The position numbers were made by a program, and so were the translations under genes. From a virus (lineage: Duplodnaviria > Heunggongvirae > Uroviricota > Caudoviricetes), in the IMG/VR virus record IMGVR_UViG_2534681662_000008, positions 1 through 20,812 of that record: a stretch of DNA of 20,812 nt. One strand, given 5' to 3'. Under the pieces are notes generated by a model, which saw only the letters and a list, made by a program, of their open reading frames with translations, made no database searches and was not told the DNA's origin. Each line of letters begins with the position of its first letter. Within the stretch, counting starts at the first letter, position 1. Positions 14,863-19,444 of the stretch are shown one piece after another.

Positions 14863-14884
14863 ATAAATAATGTAAGGAGGAGTG

Positions 14885-15655
14885 ATGTCCACACCGAATC
14901 CACTGGAGAAAACGAAAGGCGCAGGGACAACATTCTGGATGTATACCGGGATGGGAGATCCGTTTGCGTCTGCATTGTCAGACACGGACTGGCTGCGACT
15001 GGCAATGGTGAAGGATTTGCAGCCGGGCGAAATGACGGCTGATGCGGAAGACGACACGTATCTTGATGATGAGAATGCGGACTGGAAGAGCACATCTCAG
15101 GGCCAGAAAACCGCTGGCGATACGTCTGCCACACTGGCATGGCGTCCGGGCGACAGCGGACAGAAAAAACTGGTTGAGTTGTTTTATTCCGGCGAGGTTT
15201 GTGCGTTTCGCATTCTGTACCCCAACGGCACAGTTGATGTTTTTCGTGGCTGGTTGAGTTCGCTGGGCAAAGCGGTGACGTCAACGGAAGTGATGACCCG
15301 GACCATCAAAATCACCGGGATTGGGCGTCCGTACCTGGCGGAAGAGTGTCAGGAGGTGGTCAGCGTCACCGGTGTGACGGTGACACCGATGGCGGTGACA
15401 CTGCATCCTGGTGAAACGTCCAAACTGACGTTTGTGCTTGTACCGGAAAACGCCTCGGATAAAACGCTCACGGTGTTTTCCACGGATCCGCAGACAGCAA
15501 CGGTAAGCCTGAGCGGCCTTGTGGCTACGGTATCTGCCCGCCAGGAAGGGACGGTCAGTATTGTGGGTATGAGCGGTGATGGCCGTACGGGGCAGGTGGT
15601 CAAGGTGACCGTGGCCCCTGCTGAGGAGAAGAGTACCGGACGTACCCGGGGATAA
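14885..15655 (+). CDS. V: Major tail protein (lambda gpV-like) with C-terminal Ig-like (Big_2-type) domain
   Basis: AAGGAGG ribosome-binding site. ...KGAGTTFWMYTGMGDPFASALSDTDWLRLAMVKDLQPGEMTA...DTYLDDENADW...GQKTAGDTSATLAW...YPNGTVDVFRGWLSSLGKAVT... is collinear with lambda V. Confidence 0.95.
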   Translation: MSTPNPLEKTKGAGTTFWMYTGMGDPFASALSDTDWLRLAMVKDLQPGEMTADAEDDTYLDDENADWKSTSQGQKTAGDTSATLAWRPGDSGQKKLVELFYSGEVCAFRILYPNGTVDVFRGWLSSLGKAVTSTEVMTRTIKITGIGRPYLAEECQEVVSVTGVTVTPMAVTLHPGETSKLTFVLVPENASDKTLTVFSTDPQTATVSLSGLVATVSARQEGTVSIVGMSGDGRTGQVVKVTVAPAEEKSTGRTRG

Positions 15656-15675
15656 CAGGGCCATGTTTATCATCA

Positions 15676-15700
15676 GCCCCGGTTCGCCGGGGTTTTTTAT
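15676..15700 (+). terminator. Rho-independent terminator between V and G (UUCG tetraloop hairpin plus T6)
   Basis: CCCCGG (15677-15682) pairs with CCGGGG (15687-15692), loop TTCG, followed by TTTTTT (15693-15698). Confidence 0.65.
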
Positions 15701-15715
15701 TCGGGGAGAAGAGAA

Positions 15716-16105
15716 ATGTTTCTGAAACAGGATACGTTTAATTACGGCAATCAGTCGGTGGTACTGAATGAACTGTCTGGTCTGCAGCGTGTGGAATACC
15801 TGGCTTATGCCCGTGAACGCGCGGCGCAGTTTGATGAGGCTTCTGCAGGAATGGAAGAAGGGGCCCGCCAGATTGCTTTTATGGAAATGGGGATGGACAT
15901 CAACGCCTGGCTGGTTTCCCGTTCGCTGTGGAATGCCGACCAGTCTCAGAATGTGGCGGCGCTTTTTTCCTCCGTGCGCGTGACATGGTCCTGGGATGCG
16001 CTGGGGATGGCGGCGGAAAGCATTCTGGCGCTGAGCGGTATGGCACTGACAGTGGCGACAGAGGGGGATGACGTGAAGGAGGTGCTGACGCCGGAAAAGT
16101 CCTGA
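15716..16105 (+). CDS. G: Tail assembly chaperone (lambda gpG-like)
   Basis: 129 aa. MFLKQDTFNYGNQSVVLNELSGLQRVEYLAYARERAAQ matches lambda G (MFLKTESFEHNGVTVTLSELSALQRIEHLA, recalled). Confidence 0.9.
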   Translation: MFLKQDTFNYGNQSVVLNELSGLQRVEYLAYARERAAQFDEASAGMEEGARQIAFMEMGMDINAWLVSRSLWNADQSQNVAALFSSVRVTWSWDALGMAAESILALSGMALTVATEGDDVKEVLTPEKS

Positions 16106-16428
16106 CGCAGGAAATGCAGTTTGTCATGCGGCTGGCCCGGGAGTTCCGGCGGGGCGACTGGCGGCGAATGCTGTCAGAAATGTCAGCCACAGAACTGGGA
16201 GAGTGGGGGGATTATTTCCGGCGGCAGAGTTTCAGTGATGTGTGGCTGGATGCGCAATTTGCCACACTGAAAACGCTGATTGTGCAGATGGTTTCCGGAA
16301 AAACCGTGGCGGCGGATATGTTCAGCTTGTTGCCTTCAGAGACAGAAGCGCCCGTCCGGACAGATGAAGAGCTGATGTTTCTGGGGGAAGGTATCGCGGG
16401 AGGAATAAGAATTGAGCCAGATAGCTGA
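15716..16428 (+). CDS. T: Tail assembly protein G-T fusion made by programmed -1 ribosomal frameshift near the 3' end of G
   Basis: The -1 frame is open from 16072 through the G stop (16103-16105) to TGA at 16426-16428, encoding a lambda gpT-like segment. Slippery-type heptamer G-GAA-AAG at 16093-16099. Confidence 0.7.
16076..16099 (+). other. Frameshift cassette: internal SD-like AAGGAGG (16076-16082) 10 nt upstream of slippery G-GAA-AAG (16093-16099)
   Basis: Read directly from the sequence. The spacing resembles the stimulatory SD element of the E. coli dnaX -1 frameshift site. Confidence 0.45.
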
Positions 16429-19400
16429 CCTTGTTATTGATTTAAGTGTTGATACGGCTGATTTTAAGGAACAGCTTCCGCGTATTAAAGCGCAACTCAA
16501 TGGTACCGCCAGCGAAGCGGCGCGCGCAGAAGCGCGGGTCAGACAGTTTGAAGCGAGTCAGAAGCAGGCGGCGACTACCGCGGTGAAACAGACTCAGGCA
16601 CTGGCGGGGAATGCGCAGGCGCATGTTTCGTTGTCAGAGGATGTGGAACAGACCCGTCAGCGACTTGATGCCCTGAACCGGAAAATGCGTGAGGAGCAGG
16701 CGCAGGCGGCGGCACTGGCTGCTGCTCAGGATAAAGCCGCTGCTGCATTTTATCGTCAGATTGACAGTGTGAAACAGGCGGGGGCCGGACTGCAGGAGCT
16801 GCAGCGTATTCAGCAGCAGGTCCGTCAGGCCAGAAACAATGGTGGCATCGCGCAGCAGGATTATCTGGCGTTAATCTCCGAAGTGACGGCAAAAACCCGC
16901 GTGCTGGCTCAGGCTGAAGAATCCGCCACCCGCCAGAAGACGGCCTTTATCCGGCGGCTGAAGGAGCAGGTATCCGCTCAGAATCTTTCATCCACGGAGC
17001 TGCTCAGGGCAAAAGCCGCGCAGCTGGGTGTCAGTAGTGCGGCTGAGGTGTATATCAGCAAAATGGAAAAAGCCGGGAAGGTCACGCATTCGCTGGGGCT
17101 GAAAAGTGCGGCGGCCCGCCAGGAGATAGGTGTTCTGATAGGTGAAATTGCCCGGGGTAATTTCGGTGCGCTTCGTGGCTCCGGGATCACCCTGGCTAAC
17201 CGTGCCGGATGGATTGACGCGCTGATGTCCCCGAAAGGCATGGCTGTCGGCGGGGTTATCGGTGGACTCACTGCTGCTGTTGTCGGGCTGGGAAAGGCCT
17301 GGTATGACGGTCAGAAGGAGGGGGAGGTGTTTAATCGTCAGCTGGCGTTGACAGGGCATTATGCGGGCATCACTACCGGACAGCTGTGGACTCTCAGTCG
17401 CGCCATTTCCGGGAATGGTATCACGCAACATGCTGCAGCCAGTGCGCTGGCTCAGGCGGTTGGCAGCGGTGCATTTCGTGGAGGTGATATCGCCATGGTG
17501 GCGAAAGCTGCCGCGCAAATGGAAAGTTCAGTGGGGCAGTCTGTCAGCGACACCATCAGTCAGTTTAAGCGACTGAAGGATGACCCGGTAAATGCAGCCA
17601 GGACGCTGGATAATGAACTGCATTTCCTGACTGCCACCCAGCTTGAACAAATCCGTGTTCTCGGGGAACAGGGGCGTGCCAGTGATGCTGCCCGGATCGC
17701 CATGTCAGCGCTGGCAGAGGAAACCGGTAAACGCACATCTGATATTGATAATAATCTCAATGCGCTGGGCAGTACGCTGCAAACCTTATCTGACTGGTGG
17801 AAGCAGTTCTGGGATGCCGCCATGAATATCGGGCGTAATGATTCCCTTGATGCGCAGATTGCGGCGCTGCAGGAAAAAATTCAGCGTGCGAAAAAATCGC
17901 CCTGGACAAATGCATCCACCACAGTGGAATACGACCAGCAGCGCCTTGATGAACTTCAGGAGAAAAAGCGCCAGAAAGATTTACAGGATGCAAAAGAGCA
18001 GGCAGAGCGGAATTATCAGGAGCAACAGAAACGCCGTAATGCTGAAAATGCTGCACTGAACCGGATGAATGAAACGGAAGCAGCACGACATCAGCGTGAA
18101 ATTGCGCGTATTAATGCCATGCAGTACGCAGATCAGTCGGTCAGGGACGCAGCGATACAGCGTGAAAATAAACGTCACAAAAAAGCCATTAAGAAAGAAA
18201 CGCCTGCCACCCGTAATGATGAGGCCACCCGGTTATTACTGCAGTACAGCCAGCAACAGGCGCAGGTGGAGGGGCAGATCGCCGCCGCCAGACAGTCCGC
18301 GGGACTGACCACGAAAAAAATGACGGAAGCGCATAAGCAGCTTCTGGCCCTGCAGCAGCGTATCAGTGATTTAGCCGGTAAAAAGCTGACGGCAGATGAA
18401 AAAAGCGTGCTGGCGCATAAGGATGAACTGATTCAGGCGCTGACGCTGCTGGATGCAAAACAGCAGGAGCTGCAGAAGCAGACGGCGCTGAATGACCTTA
18501 AGAAAAAATCCATTCAGCTTGCCAGCCAGCTGGCGGAAGAGGAGCGGGTTCTGCGTCAGCAACATGACCTGGATATCGCCACGACAGGGATGGGGGATAA
18601 ACAGCGTCAGCGATACCAGGCACAGTTCAGTCTGCAACAAAAATATCAGCAGCAGCGGGAACAGTTGGAGCGTGACAGTAAGCGGAAAGGAACATATGGC
18701 ACAGATGAATACCGGAATGCTGAGCAGACGCTGACAGACAGTCTTAACCGGCAACTGAACGAAAACAGACGCTACTGGCAGGAGCAGGAACTGATGCAGG
18801 CAGACTGGAAAAACGGTGCCATGCGGGCGTTTCAGAATTTTACGGCAGATGCGGATAATGCGGCAGGAACTGCTGAGCAGATGTTTACAGCGGCATTTAA
18901 CAGTGCAGGTAATGCACTGGCGACGTTCTGCACGACAGGTAAACTGAATTTCAAATCCTTTACCGCCTCGCTTCTTTCCGACCTGGCAAAAATCATGGCG
19001 CAGATGGCCATTATGCAGGCGGTGAAGGGGATTGGTTCGGCGTTTGGCTGGGGGAGCGCATCCGCTGCCAGTGTGACGCCCAATGCGGATGGCGGTGTTT
19101 ATCAGTCTGCGGATTTGAGCCGTTACAGTGGCTCAGTGGTTAACCGCCCGACGTTTTTTGCCTTTGCAAAAGGCGCGGGGGTGATGGGAGAAGCGGGGCC
19201 TGAAGCCATTCTGCCACTGCGTCGTGGTGCCGACGGTAAGCTGGGTGTTGTGGCGGATATTGGTGGTTCAGGCATGGTGATGTTTGCCCCGCAGTACAAC
19301 ATCGCGATCAATAACGACGGTACGAACGGGCAGATAGGTCCGGCTGCCCTGAAGGTGGTTTATGACCTCGGGAAAAAAGCTGCAGCGGACTTTATGCAAC

Positions 19401-19444
19401 AGCAGTCCCGTGATGGCGGTCAGTTAAGCGGAGTGTATCGGTAA
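16412..19444 (+). CDS. H: Tail tape measure protein (lambda gpH-like), 1010 aa
   Basis: TTG start at 16412 with GGAGG 8 nt upstream. N-terminus ...ADLVIDLSVDTADFKEQL... and C-terminus ...IAINNDGTNGQIGPAALKVVYDL...RDGGQLSGV match lambda H. About 157 aa longer than lambda H (853 aa, recalled). Confidence 0.9.
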   Translation: MSQIADLVIDLSVDTADFKEQLPRIKAQLNGTASEAARAEARVRQFEASQKQAATTAVKQTQALAGNAQAHVSLSEDVEQTRQRLDALNRKMREEQAQAAALAAAQDKAAAAFYRQIDSVKQAGAGLQELQRIQQQVRQARNNGGIAQQDYLALISEVTAKTRVLAQAEESATRQKTAFIRRLKEQVSAQNLSSTELLRAKAAQLGVSSAAEVYISKMEKAGKVTHSLGLKSAAARQEIGVLIGEIARGNFGALRGSGITLANRAGWIDALMSPKGMAVGGVIGGLTAAVVGLGKAWYDGQKEGEVFNRQLALTGHYAGITTGQLWTLSRAISGNGITQHAAASALAQAVGSGAFRGGDIAMVAKAAAQMESSVGQSVSDTISQFKRLKDDPVNAARTLDNELHFLTATQLEQIRVLGEQGRASDAARIAMSALAEETGKRTSDIDNNLNALGSTLQTLSDWWKQFWDAAMNIGRNDSLDAQIAALQEKIQRAKKSPWTNASTTVEYDQQRLDELQEKKRQKDLQDAKEQAERNYQEQQKRRNAENAALNRMNETEAARHQREIARINAMQYADQSVRDAAIQRENKRHKKAIKKETPATRNDEATRLLLQYSQQQAQVEGQIAAARQSAGLTTKKMTEAHKQLLALQQRISDLAGKKLTADEKSVLAHKDELIQALTLLDAKQQELQKQTALNDLKKKSIQLASQLAEEERVLRQQHDLDIATTGMGDKQRQRYQAQFSLQQKYQQQREQLERDSKRKGTYGTDEYRNAEQTLTDSLNRQLNENRRYWQEQELMQADWKNGAMRAFQNFTADADNAAGTAEQMFTAAFNSAGNALATFCTTGKLNFKSFTASLLSDLAKIMAQMAIMQAVKGIGSAFGWGSASAASVTPNADGGVYQSADLSRYSGSVVNRPTFFAFAKGAGVMGEAGPEAILPLRRGADGKLGVVADIGGSGMVMFAPQYNIAINNDGTNGQIGPAALKVVYDLGKKAAADFMQQQSRDGGQLSGVYR

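What the first reader, a model, noticed from the sequence alone, without database searches (positions are those of the whole stretch)
16072..16105. G-T frameshift site has a variant slippery heptamer and an upstream SD-like stimulator
Lambda frameshifts at G-GGA-AAG (recalled). Here the only A-rich slippery candidate in the 34-nt overlap window is G-GAA-AAG (16093-16099), which is suboptimal for P-site re-pairing, and it is preceded at a 10-nt spacing by a perfect internal Shine-Dalgarno-like AAGGAGG (16076-16082). That geometry is the one used by the E. coli dnaX -1 frameshift signal, so this phage may compensate a weaker slip site with an rRNA-pairing stimulator.
Basis: partly seen in the sequence, partly recalled or inferred. 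Interest (0 to 1): 0.5.

Follow-up and report, generated by a model that had tools for sequence, protein, structure and literature searches.

The report
Tail-chaperone frameshift site with upstream ribosome-pairing element
This is the ordinary programmed -1 frameshift site of a lambda-like prophage's tail-assembly genes G and T; its slip sequence is the family's commonest form rather than a rare variant, and it is preceded at the right distance by an unusually strong rRNA-pairing motif that probably boosts slipping.

Summary
Gene G (15716-16105) overlaps the -1 frame T ORF by 34 nt (16072-16105). The only slip-prone site there is G_GAA_AAG (16093-16099). AAGGAGG (16076-16082, really AAGGAGGTG) lies 10 nt upstream.

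G_GAA_AAG is not a rare variant. It is the heptamer in 31 of 41 lineage clusters of lambda-type G-T junctions I sampled, and the phage N15 record already annotates it as the slippery sequence. Lambda's G_GGA_AAG is the minority form (3 of 41).

The Shine-Dalgarno-like (SD-like) element is real and strong. It forms 9 bp with the 16S rRNA 3' end (-15.4 kcal/mol) and ties for the best such site on the window's + strand. SD-like cores recur at the same spacing in 12 of 13 lineages of the "TPEK" branch. Codon choice at a conserved Glu favours GAG only when the next codon starts with G.

Seventeen lineages use the same heptamer without an SD-like element, so "compensation for a weak heptamer" is not supported. 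Two of the synonymous-codon tests were not significant. No conserved downstream structure was found.

Verdict: a new member of a known kind, SD-assisted -1 frameshifting. Stimulation is untested. Interest is modest.

The parts
14882..15655 (+). Major tail tube protein gene (lambda V homolog). Upstream neighbour that fixes the V-G-T-H gene order.
   Evidence: Pfam PF16461 (E=1e-63) plus Big_2. Its ribosome-binding site is the same 7-mer, AAGGAGG, at 14874-14880, ahead of GTG 14882 and ATG 14885.
15675..15704 (+). Intrinsic-terminator-like hairpin plus T-run between V and G.
   Evidence: Terminator scan: 8-pair stem with 6 G-C pairs, then TTTTTATT. A terminator or stem-loop is annotated at the same place in phages Ayreon and N15.
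15716..16105 (+). Gene G, tail assembly chaperone, 129 aa. This is the 0 frame.
   Evidence: ORF list. Pfam PF06894 Phage_TAC_2, E=4.9e-35.
16069..16071 (+). Last stop codon (TGA) in the -1 frame. It sets the 5' limit of the overlap window.
   Evidence: Read from the sequence and confirmed by script.
16076..16084 (+). Internal Shine-Dalgarno-like element AAGGAGGTG, inside G (codons Lys-Glu-Val). Candidate 5' stimulator of the -1 shift.
   Evidence: 9 bp with the 16S rRNA 3' end, -15.4 kcal/mol. Ties for the strongest 8-mer on the + strand. There is no ATG, GTG or TTG 4-12 nt downstream, so it is not an initiation site. SD-like cores are present at the same spacing in 12 of 13 lineages of the TPEK branch.
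16093..16099 (+). Slip site G_GAA_AAG. P-site tRNA-Glu moves GAA to GGA; A-site tRNA-Lys moves AAG to AAA.
   Evidence: Only A_AAG in the overlap. Identical heptamer in 31 of 41 lineage clusters. Annotated as the slippery sequence in N15.
16103..16105 (+). G stop codon TGA, one codon after the heptamer.
16072..16428 (+). Open -1 frame that carries the T domain. It is translated from about 16096/16099 onward only after the slip. The predicted GT fusion is join(15716..16099, 16099..16428), 237 aa, with junction ...EVLTPEK-VLTQEMQF...
   Evidence: Pfam PF06223 Phage_tail_T, E=4.3e-12. Fusion translated.
16412..19444 (+). Tape measure protein gene (lambda H homolog). Downstream neighbour.
   Evidence: Pfam TMP_2, Tape_meas_lam_C and TMP_4. 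Its own SD, GGGAGGA, lies before TTG 16412.

Best explanation
This is the programmed -1 ribosomal frameshift site that makes the G-T fusion tail-assembly chaperone of a lambda-like prophage.

Most ribosomes translating G read CCG GAA AAG TCC and stop at TGA, giving the 129-aa G protein. A small fraction slip back one base on G_GAA_AAG. The single E. coli tRNA-Lys re-pairs from AAG to AAA. tRNA-Glu re-pairs from GAA to GGA with a G.U pair in the middle position. These ribosomes continue into the T frame and make a 237-aa GT protein.

The heptamer is the standard one for this protein family. Ten nucleotides upstream, AAGGAGGUG can pair over 9 bp with the 3' end of 16S rRNA in the translating ribosome. 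At this spacing such pairing is known to raise -1 slippage in dnaX and IS911, so it most likely increases the GT fraction here.

Shown: the anatomy, the family membership, the conservation of the heptamer, and the recurrence of SD-like cores at this position in one large branch of the family.

Inferred: that slipping occurs at this site, and that the SD-like element stimulates it.
For: - G, T, V and H identities and their order.
- Only one slip-prone site lies in the 34-nt overlap.
- The junction CTGACGCCGGAAAAGTCCTGA is kept while the G tail just upstream diverges.
- G_GAA_AAG is found in 31 of 41 lineage clusters and is annotated as the slippery sequence in N15.
- A_AAG is the most shift-prone tetramer, and X_XXA_AAG heptamers are the most efficient class in E. 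coli (PMC4066793).
- GAA to GGA re-pairing through G.U is noted in PMC10885494.
- SD strength is -15.4 kcal/mol against -7.4 for dnaX.
- The spacing is inside the stimulatory ranges of 9-14 nt and 6-17 nt.
- By the published motif criterion, 11 of 12 TPEK-branch lineages are SD-positive. Synonymous recoding predicts 6.8 (P=0.007) and other positions in G predict 2.5 (P=2e-7). A 13th lineage, L371, encodes AAGGAG in a different codon register.
- The anti-SD affinity profile peaks sharply 7-11 nt before the heptamer, in 92% of these lineages.
- The conserved Glu at codon -5 is GAG in 10 of 12 lineages when the next codon starts with G. The background for that context is 0.37 (P=0.0014). It is GAG in only 8 of 20 lineages when the next codon does not start with G.
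- No start codon follows the element.
- No downstream structure competes as a stimulator.
Against: - There is no experimental data for this lineage.
- The energy-based synonymous test was not significant (Fisher 0.42; this lineage alone P=0.18).
- The family-wide motif test against synonymous recoding was not significant (19 SD-positive against 16.4 expected, P=0.22).
- Lineages are related, so the P values overstate independence. After collapsing related lineages, the Glu-codon test gives about P=0.016 (my arithmetic).
- The codon-level tests were partly chosen after seeing the data.
- Sampling was anchored on DNA patterns.
- Seventeen lineage clusters use the same heptamer with no SD-like element, so the element is not required for G-T frameshifting.
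- The acidic G tail (Glu or Asp followed by Val, Ala or Asp) yields GAGG or AGGA easily.
- An SD-like GAGGGGGA lies 8 nt further upstream (16061-16068) and could compete for the anti-SD.
Confidence: 0.55

Rival explanations
1. The frameshift works on the heptamer alone, as in N15 and lambda. The SD-like sequence is a by-product of coding Lys-Glu-Val in an acidic, G-rich-codon tail. It was inherited by descent within one branch and has no selected role, even if it has some small incidental effect.
For: - Given the amino acids, synonymous recoding reproduces an SD-like element this strong in 18% of trials for this lineage.
- Recoding yields some SD-like motif in 64-66% of trials.
- The family-wide excess over synonymous expectation is not significant (P=0.22).
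- Seventeen same-heptamer lineage clusters lack any SD-like element.
- The canonical-heptamer G-T gene clusters analysed in PMC4066793 have no conserved SD (Table S8).
Against: - There is a sharp, position-specific peak of anti-SD affinity, present in 92% of TPEK-branch lineages and absent elsewhere in G.
- The core is kept through different amino acids (Glu, Ala, Asp, Val, Gly at codon -5) and in a different codon register in L371.
- GAG is preferred over GAA only where it creates GAGG.
- The element ties for the strongest anti-SD match on the + strand of a 20.8-kb window and equals the major tail gene's RBS 7-mer.
Confidence: 0.33
2. One reading: the SD-like element exists specifically to compensate for a weak heptamer (G_GAA_AAG against lambda's G_GGA_AAG).
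For: - G_GAA_AAG is not a canonical X_XXZ_ZZN motif, and P-site re-pairing has a G.U in the middle position (sequence).
- The lambda-type G_GGA_AAG and A_AAA_AAG lineages sampled mostly lack an SD-like element.
Against: - Among G_GAA_AAG lineage clusters, 14 have an SD-like element and 17 do not.
- One G_GGA_AAG lineage (L430/L485) does have GGAG at 10 nt.
- Presence of the element tracks the branch of the family (TPEK against EPVTAEK tails), not the identity of the heptamer.
Confidence: 0.08
3. The SD-like element is a true ribosome-binding site for internal initiation, for example of a free T protein, or T is translated on its own from ATG 16114 and no frameshift occurs.
For: Annotation pipelines call T as a separate CDS starting at an internal ATG. 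An AGGA lies just before ATG 16114.
Against: - No ATG, GTG or TTG lies 4-12 nt after AAGGAGG in any frame. ATG 16114 is 31 nt away, and its own AGGA is only 1 nt upstream of it.
- The -1 frame is kept open back across the heptamer in every relative.
- In lambda the T domain is made only as GT (PMC5009743; PMC3296357).
Confidence: 0.03

Closest known systems
Phage lambda G/GT programmed -1 frameshift (Levin 1993; Xu 2004, 2013, 2014)
   Same: Homologous G and T domains. Same V-G-T-H gene order. The slip is near the 3' end of G and ends in A_AAG read by tRNA-Lys. The GT fusion is a minor product.
   Different: Lambda uses G_GGA_AAG with the G stop five codons later, and it has no SD-like element 6-17 nt upstream. 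Here the heptamer is G_GAA_AAG, the stop is one codon later, and a 9-nt SD-like element lies 10 nt upstream.
Phage N15 genes 14/15 (also phi80, HK225, mEp237, mEp043)
   Same: Identical heptamer G_GAA_AAG, already annotated in the N15 record as the slippery sequence for the -1 frameshift.
   Different: The tail before the slip site is EPVTAEK, with Glu followed by Pro. There is no SD-like element in range. The G stop is five codons later. A stable hairpin lies about 33 nt downstream.
mEp460 / cdtI / Ayreon, Gifsy-1, Gifsy-2 and Fels-1 G-T junctions
   Same: Same branch of the family. They share ...(L/T)(T/S)PEK(S/P)-stop, the same heptamer, a stop one codon later, and an SD-like core (GAGGTG, GAGG, AAGGA, GAGGA or AGGA) 10-13 nt upstream.
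   Different: Their SD-like cores are 4-6 nt long. This lineage has the longest match (9 nt). G is only about 64% identical to the mEp460 type.
E. coli dnaX -1 frameshift signal
   Same: A slip motif ending in A_AAG with an internal SD-like element about 10 nt upstream, within the 9-14 nt range reported to stimulate -1 shifts.
   Different: dnaX has the canonical A_AAA_AAG and also needs a downstream stem-loop. No such structure is found here. dnaX frameshifting is far more efficient than the roughly 4% reported for G-T (the dnaX level is from my own knowledge).
IS911 / IS3-family transposase -1 frameshift
   Same: A short SD-like element (GGAG) upstream of an A_AAG-type motif acts as a moderate stimulator. 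The published motif list and 6-17 nt window come from this system.
   Different: IS elements combine the SD with a stem-loop or pseudoknot and mostly use A_AAA_AAG or A_AAA_AAA. The gene family and biological role are unrelated.

Membership tests
Lambda-type G/GT tail assembly chaperone frameshift | Upstream ORF is a gpG-family chaperone. | tested here: met
   PF06894, E=4.9e-35, covering residues 1-118 of 129.
Lambda-type G/GT tail assembly chaperone frameshift | The -1 frame ORF carries a T domain and has no plausible start of its own. | tested here: met
   PF06223, E=4.3e-12. The only nearby ATG (16114) has its AGGA just 1 nt upstream. The frame stays open back across the heptamer.
Lambda-type G/GT tail assembly chaperone frameshift | Located between the major tail protein gene and the tape measure gene. 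| tested here: met
   V homolog at 14882-15655 and tape measure gene at 16412-19444.
Lambda-type G/GT tail assembly chaperone frameshift | A slip-prone heptamer in the overlap, conserved among homologs. | tested here: met
   G_GAA_AAG is the only candidate. It is identical in 31 of 41 lineage clusters.
Lambda-type G/GT tail assembly chaperone frameshift | A GT fusion protein is made at a few percent of G. | not testable with these tools
   Needs an immunoblot, mass spectrometry or a reporter assay. Lambda's value of about 4% is from the literature.
SD-stimulated -1 frameshift (dnaX / IS911 type) | Slip motif that allows cognate A-site re-pairing (A_AAG). | tested here: met
   AAG preceded by A at 16096-16099. 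The motif hierarchy is given in PMC4066793.
SD-stimulated -1 frameshift (dnaX / IS911 type) | Internal sequence complementary to the 16S rRNA 3' end. | tested here: met
   AAGGAGGUG, 9 bp, -15.4 kcal/mol.
SD-stimulated -1 frameshift (dnaX / IS911 type) | Spacing of 9-14 nt (or 6-17 nt) from the motif. | tested here: met
   10 nt from AAGGAGG to the heptamer.
SD-stimulated -1 frameshift (dnaX / IS911 type) | The SD-like element is conserved among homologs beyond what coding requires. | tested here: inconclusive
   For: 11 of 12 lineages against 6.8 expected (P=0.007), the positional peak, and the GAG-before-G codon bias (P=0.0014). Against: the energy-based test (Fisher 0.42) and the family-wide test (P=0.22) were not significant, and the lineages are not independent.
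SD-stimulated -1 frameshift (dnaX / IS911 type) | A downstream stem-loop or pseudoknot acts together with the SD (dnaX, IS911). | tested here: not met
   The window fold has z=-1.16. The consensus fold of 12 lineages is -7.4 kcal/mol with a positive covariation term. The best-hairpin z-score is -0.9 to +0.8 in this branch.
SD-stimulated -1 frameshift (dnaX / IS911 type) | Frameshifting falls when the SD is mutated and is restored by a compensating anti-SD change. | not testable with these tools
   Requires an experiment.

The most novel reading that the evidence does not exclude
One large branch of lambda-like phages (mEp460, cdtI, Gifsy, Fels-1 and this lineage) sets its G:GT ratio with an rRNA-pairing stimulator. 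The stimulator is maintained through codon choice at a conserved Glu (GAG followed by a G-initial codon). The N15, phi80 and lambda branch does without it. This window carries the strongest version. Both slip-site tRNAs here (Glu and Lys) carry mnm5s2U34, so the ratio could also be more sensitive to the host's tRNA thiolation state than lambda's is.
Probability: 0.4. Interest if true: 0.45.

Novelty: new member of a known kind. Interest (0 to 1): 0.33.

Why it matters
G-T frameshifting is among the most widespread recoding events in tailed phages, and in lambda the G:GT ratio must stay high for tail assembly. Lambda, the textbook case, is described as having no conserved SD.

If one branch of the family really uses an upstream SD-like stimulator, three things follow:
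- The ratio can be tuned by a few synonymous or conservative changes in a disordered tail.
- Frameshift predictors and annotation pipelines, which now call G and T as separate genes, could use heptamer plus SD as a signature.
- G_GAA_AAG should be treated as the default lambdoid slip site rather than G_GGA_AAG.

None of this changes the known mechanism, so the finding is incremental.

Tried and rejected
- Downstream stimulatory structure. The single-sequence fold has z=-1.16. The RNAalifold consensus of 12 lineages shows no covariation support. The best-hairpin scan against shuffles gives z from -0.9 to +0.8 in this branch. Rejected. The small UCCUG/CAGGA hairpin begins 1 nt after the heptamer and would be inside the ribosome at the time of the slip.
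- Known RNA family. An Rfam scan of 15600-16500 gave only two sub-threshold hits, both on the V-G terminator hairpin.
- Internal initiation from the SD-like element. No start codon lies at a usable distance.
- Other slip sites or transcriptional slippage. There is no other Z_ZZN tetramer in the overlap, and the A-run is only 4 nt long.
- Energy-based synonymous-recoding test. Not significant. The discreteness of the null limits its power.
- Short overlap as the correlate of the SD-like element. Rejected after the T-anchored scan, which found short-overlap N15-like junctions (GCG GAA AAG CCC TAG) with no SD-like element.
- The genome-contig scan returned only 5 loci.
- The metagenome scan returned mostly mEp460-like copies plus one new lineage.
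- A literature search on the bare heptamer string was uninformative.
- Xu et al. 2004 is not held in the library.

Full report
**What is in the sequence.** The window carries a lambda-like tail module on the + strand. It comprises the major tail protein (14882-15655), gene G (15716-16105, 129 aa, PF06894), a -1 frame ORF with a T domain (open 16072-16428, PF06223) and the tape measure gene (16412-19444). The end of G reads GTG AAG GAG GTG CTG ACG CCG GAA AAG TCC TGA. The only slip-prone site in it is G_GAA_AAG at 16093-16099. AAGGAGG is at 16076-16082, 10 nt upstream.

Two details add to it. Complementarity to the 16S rRNA 3' end runs over nine bases, AAGGAGGTG (-15.4 kcal/mol). This 8-mer also ties for the strongest anti-SD match on the + strand of the whole 20.8-kb window. 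The same 7-mer serves as the ribosome-binding site of the major tail gene. Counted alone, neither motif is enriched in the window. What is unlikely by chance is their juxtaposition, about 3e-4 for a 9-14 nt spacing.

**The heptamer is not a variant.** I collected G-T junctions from four sources:
- annotated phage records;
- viral contigs;
- metagenome contigs;
- genome contigs.

I located each junction by reading-frame logic plus homology to G and T. G_GAA_AAG is present in N15, phi80, HK225, mEp237, mEp043, Gifsy-1, Gifsy-2, Fels-1 and the mEp460/cdtI/Ayreon group. The N15 GenBank record marks exactly these seven bases as the "slippery sequence for -1 translational frameshift".

I clustered the junctions on the 48 nt upstream of the heptamer, which gave 41 lineage clusters. 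Of these, 31 use G_GAA_AAG, 3 use lambda's G_GGA_AAG and 1 uses A_AAA_AAG. The rest use other A_AAG or A_AAA forms. Lambda is therefore the minority form.

Re-pairing of tRNA-Glu from GAA to GGA keeps G-C, G.U and A-U pairs. The same point is made for GGA re-pairing in PMC10885494, which also lists a "twofour" motif class that covers GGAAAA. In E. coli the decisive feature is cognate A-site re-pairing on A_AAG (PMC4066793), and this site has it.

**The SD-like element, evidence for a role.** The literature gives the stimulatory spacing for -1 shifts as 9-14 nt (PMC5009743). [quoted passage not shown] I applied that published criterion.

This window belongs to the branch whose G proteins end ...(L/T)(T/S)PEK(S/P)-stop.
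- In that branch 11 of 12 lineages are positive. Synonymous recoding predicts 6.8 (P=0.007) and other positions within G predict 2.5 (P=2e-7).
- A 13th lineage, L371, has AAGGAG in a different codon register, ahead of G_GAA_AAA_TAG.
- The anti-SD affinity profile has a sharp peak 7-11 nt before the heptamer, reaching -4 kcal/mol or better in 92% of these lineages. Elsewhere in the region the figure is 0-30%.
- Position -14 is G in all 13 lineages, although codon -5 encodes Glu, Ala, Asp, Val or Gly.

In the wider sample, the Glu at codon -5 is conserved family-wide.
- It is GAG in 10 of 12 lineages when the next codon begins with G, which creates GAGG. The background for GAG in that context in the same genes is 0.37 (binomial P=0.0014).
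- Both GAA exceptions still form AGGA with the preceding codon.
- When the next codon does not begin with G, usually Pro, GAG is used 8 times and GAA 12 times, which matches the background (Fisher P=0.028).
- No start codon follows the element at a usable distance.
- No conserved downstream structure exists in this branch. The SD-like element is therefore the only candidate stimulator.

**The SD-like element, evidence against.** Several results limit the claim.
- An energy-based synonymous-recoding test was not significant (Fisher 0.42; this lineage alone P=0.18).
- Across all 44 provisional lineage clusters, the motif-based excess over synonymous expectation was not significant (19 against 16.4, P=0.22). 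Only the positional comparison was (8.9 expected, P=4e-4).
- The lineages are related, and some tests were chosen after looking at the data. After collapsing obviously related lineages, the Glu-codon test gives about P=0.016.
- Sampling was anchored on DNA patterns.
- The acidic G tail makes GAGG and AGGA easy to obtain.
- Seventeen G_GAA_AAG lineage clusters have no SD-like element in range, including N15, phi80 and HK225, whose tails read EPVTAEK. One G_GGA_AAG lineage does have GGAG at 10 nt.

Presence of the element follows the branch of the family, not heptamer strength. An earlier systematic study found no conserved SD in the canonical-heptamer G-T gene clusters (PMC4066793, Table S8), which agrees with my negative result for the lambda-type branch.

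**Most likely mechanism.** Ribosomes slip -1 on G_GAA_AAG with tRNA-Glu in the P site and tRNA-Lys in the A site. This gives a 237-aa GT protein with the junction ...EVLTPEK-VLTQEMQF.... The upstream AAGGAGGUG pairs with the anti-SD of the translating ribosome and probably raises the slip frequency, as in dnaX and IS911. Here, unlike in those systems, there is no helping stem-loop.
- Slipping at this site: probability about 0.9.
- A measurable stimulatory effect of the SD-like element: about 0.55-0.65.
- A specifically compensatory role: about 0.1.

**Comparison and novelty.** The site is a full member of the lambda-type G/GT family on every feature testable here. It works like the SD half of the dnaX or IS911 signals but fails their downstream-structure feature. 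The heptamer is already known. A recurrent SD-like element in one branch of lambdoid G-T junctions is, as far as the searched literature shows, not described. It is a new member of a known kind rather than a new mechanism.

The lineage itself is rare. Copies 97% identical occur in 2 of 5,426 complete E. coli genomes, where G and T are annotated as separate genes.

Noticed in passing
window 15675-15704: An intrinsic-terminator-like hairpin (8-pair stem, then a T-run) sits between the major tail gene and G. A terminator or stem-loop is annotated at the same place in phages Ayreon and N15. It probably lowers expression of G, T and H relative to V.
   Followed up: partly
L089 (N15), L090 (phi80), L096 (mEp043): about +33 to +69 nt after the heptamer: Junctions of the N15 and phi80 type have a stable hairpin inside the T coding region (CUGGCGCG...CGCGCCA, z from -2.0 to -2.8 against shuffles). 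Lambda-type junctions have a weaker version and the TPEK branch has none. It is too far downstream for a classical stimulator, and its role is unknown.
   Followed up: partly
L371/L431, L417/L439/L489, L425, L414, L430/L485 (junction regions): Other slip-site variants occur in the same protein family: G_GAA_AAA_TAG, G_GCA_AAA_TAG (an A_AAA tetramer directly before the stop), G_GTA_AAG, A_GAA_AAG, and G_GGA_AAG_TTT_TAG with GGAG 10 nt upstream.
   Followed up: partly
L405 (E. coli MB06234), L001 (Ayreon), L002 (vB_EcoS-569R4): PGAP and most phage records annotate G and T as two separate genes, with T starting at an internal ATG. They do not annotate a ribosomal-slippage fusion. This is a systematic annotation gap for this branch.
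   Followed up: no
window 14874-14887: The major tail gene's ribosome-binding site is the same 7-mer, AAGGAGG. The ORF tool starts the gene at GTG 14882, but ATG 14885 in the same frame is the more likely start.
   Followed up: partly
window 16094-16099: Both slip-site codons (GAA Glu, AAG Lys) are read by tRNAs carrying mnm5s2U34. In lambda only the Lys tRNA is of this kind, and its thiolation state changes the G:GT ratio and phage yield (PMC3296357). This site might be more sensitive to host tRNA thiolation.
   Followed up: no
long-overlap lineages (lambda, N15, phi80): 24-27 nt upstream of the heptamer. Window 16108-16113 and equivalents in relatives.: There are two further peaks of anti-SD affinity. 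One lies about 25 nt upstream in the long-overlap branch, outside the stimulatory range. The other lies 14-16 nt downstream of the heptamer in 69% of TPEK-branch lineages (GGGAA or AGGAA just before ATG 16114). Neither is explained.
   Followed up: no
window 16061-16068: A second SD-like stretch, GAGGGGGA, lies 8 nt upstream of AAGGAGG. It could compete for the anti-SD, whereas the prfB (release factor 2) frameshift site, which uses an upstream SD stimulator, is reported to lack such upstream competitors.
   Followed up: no
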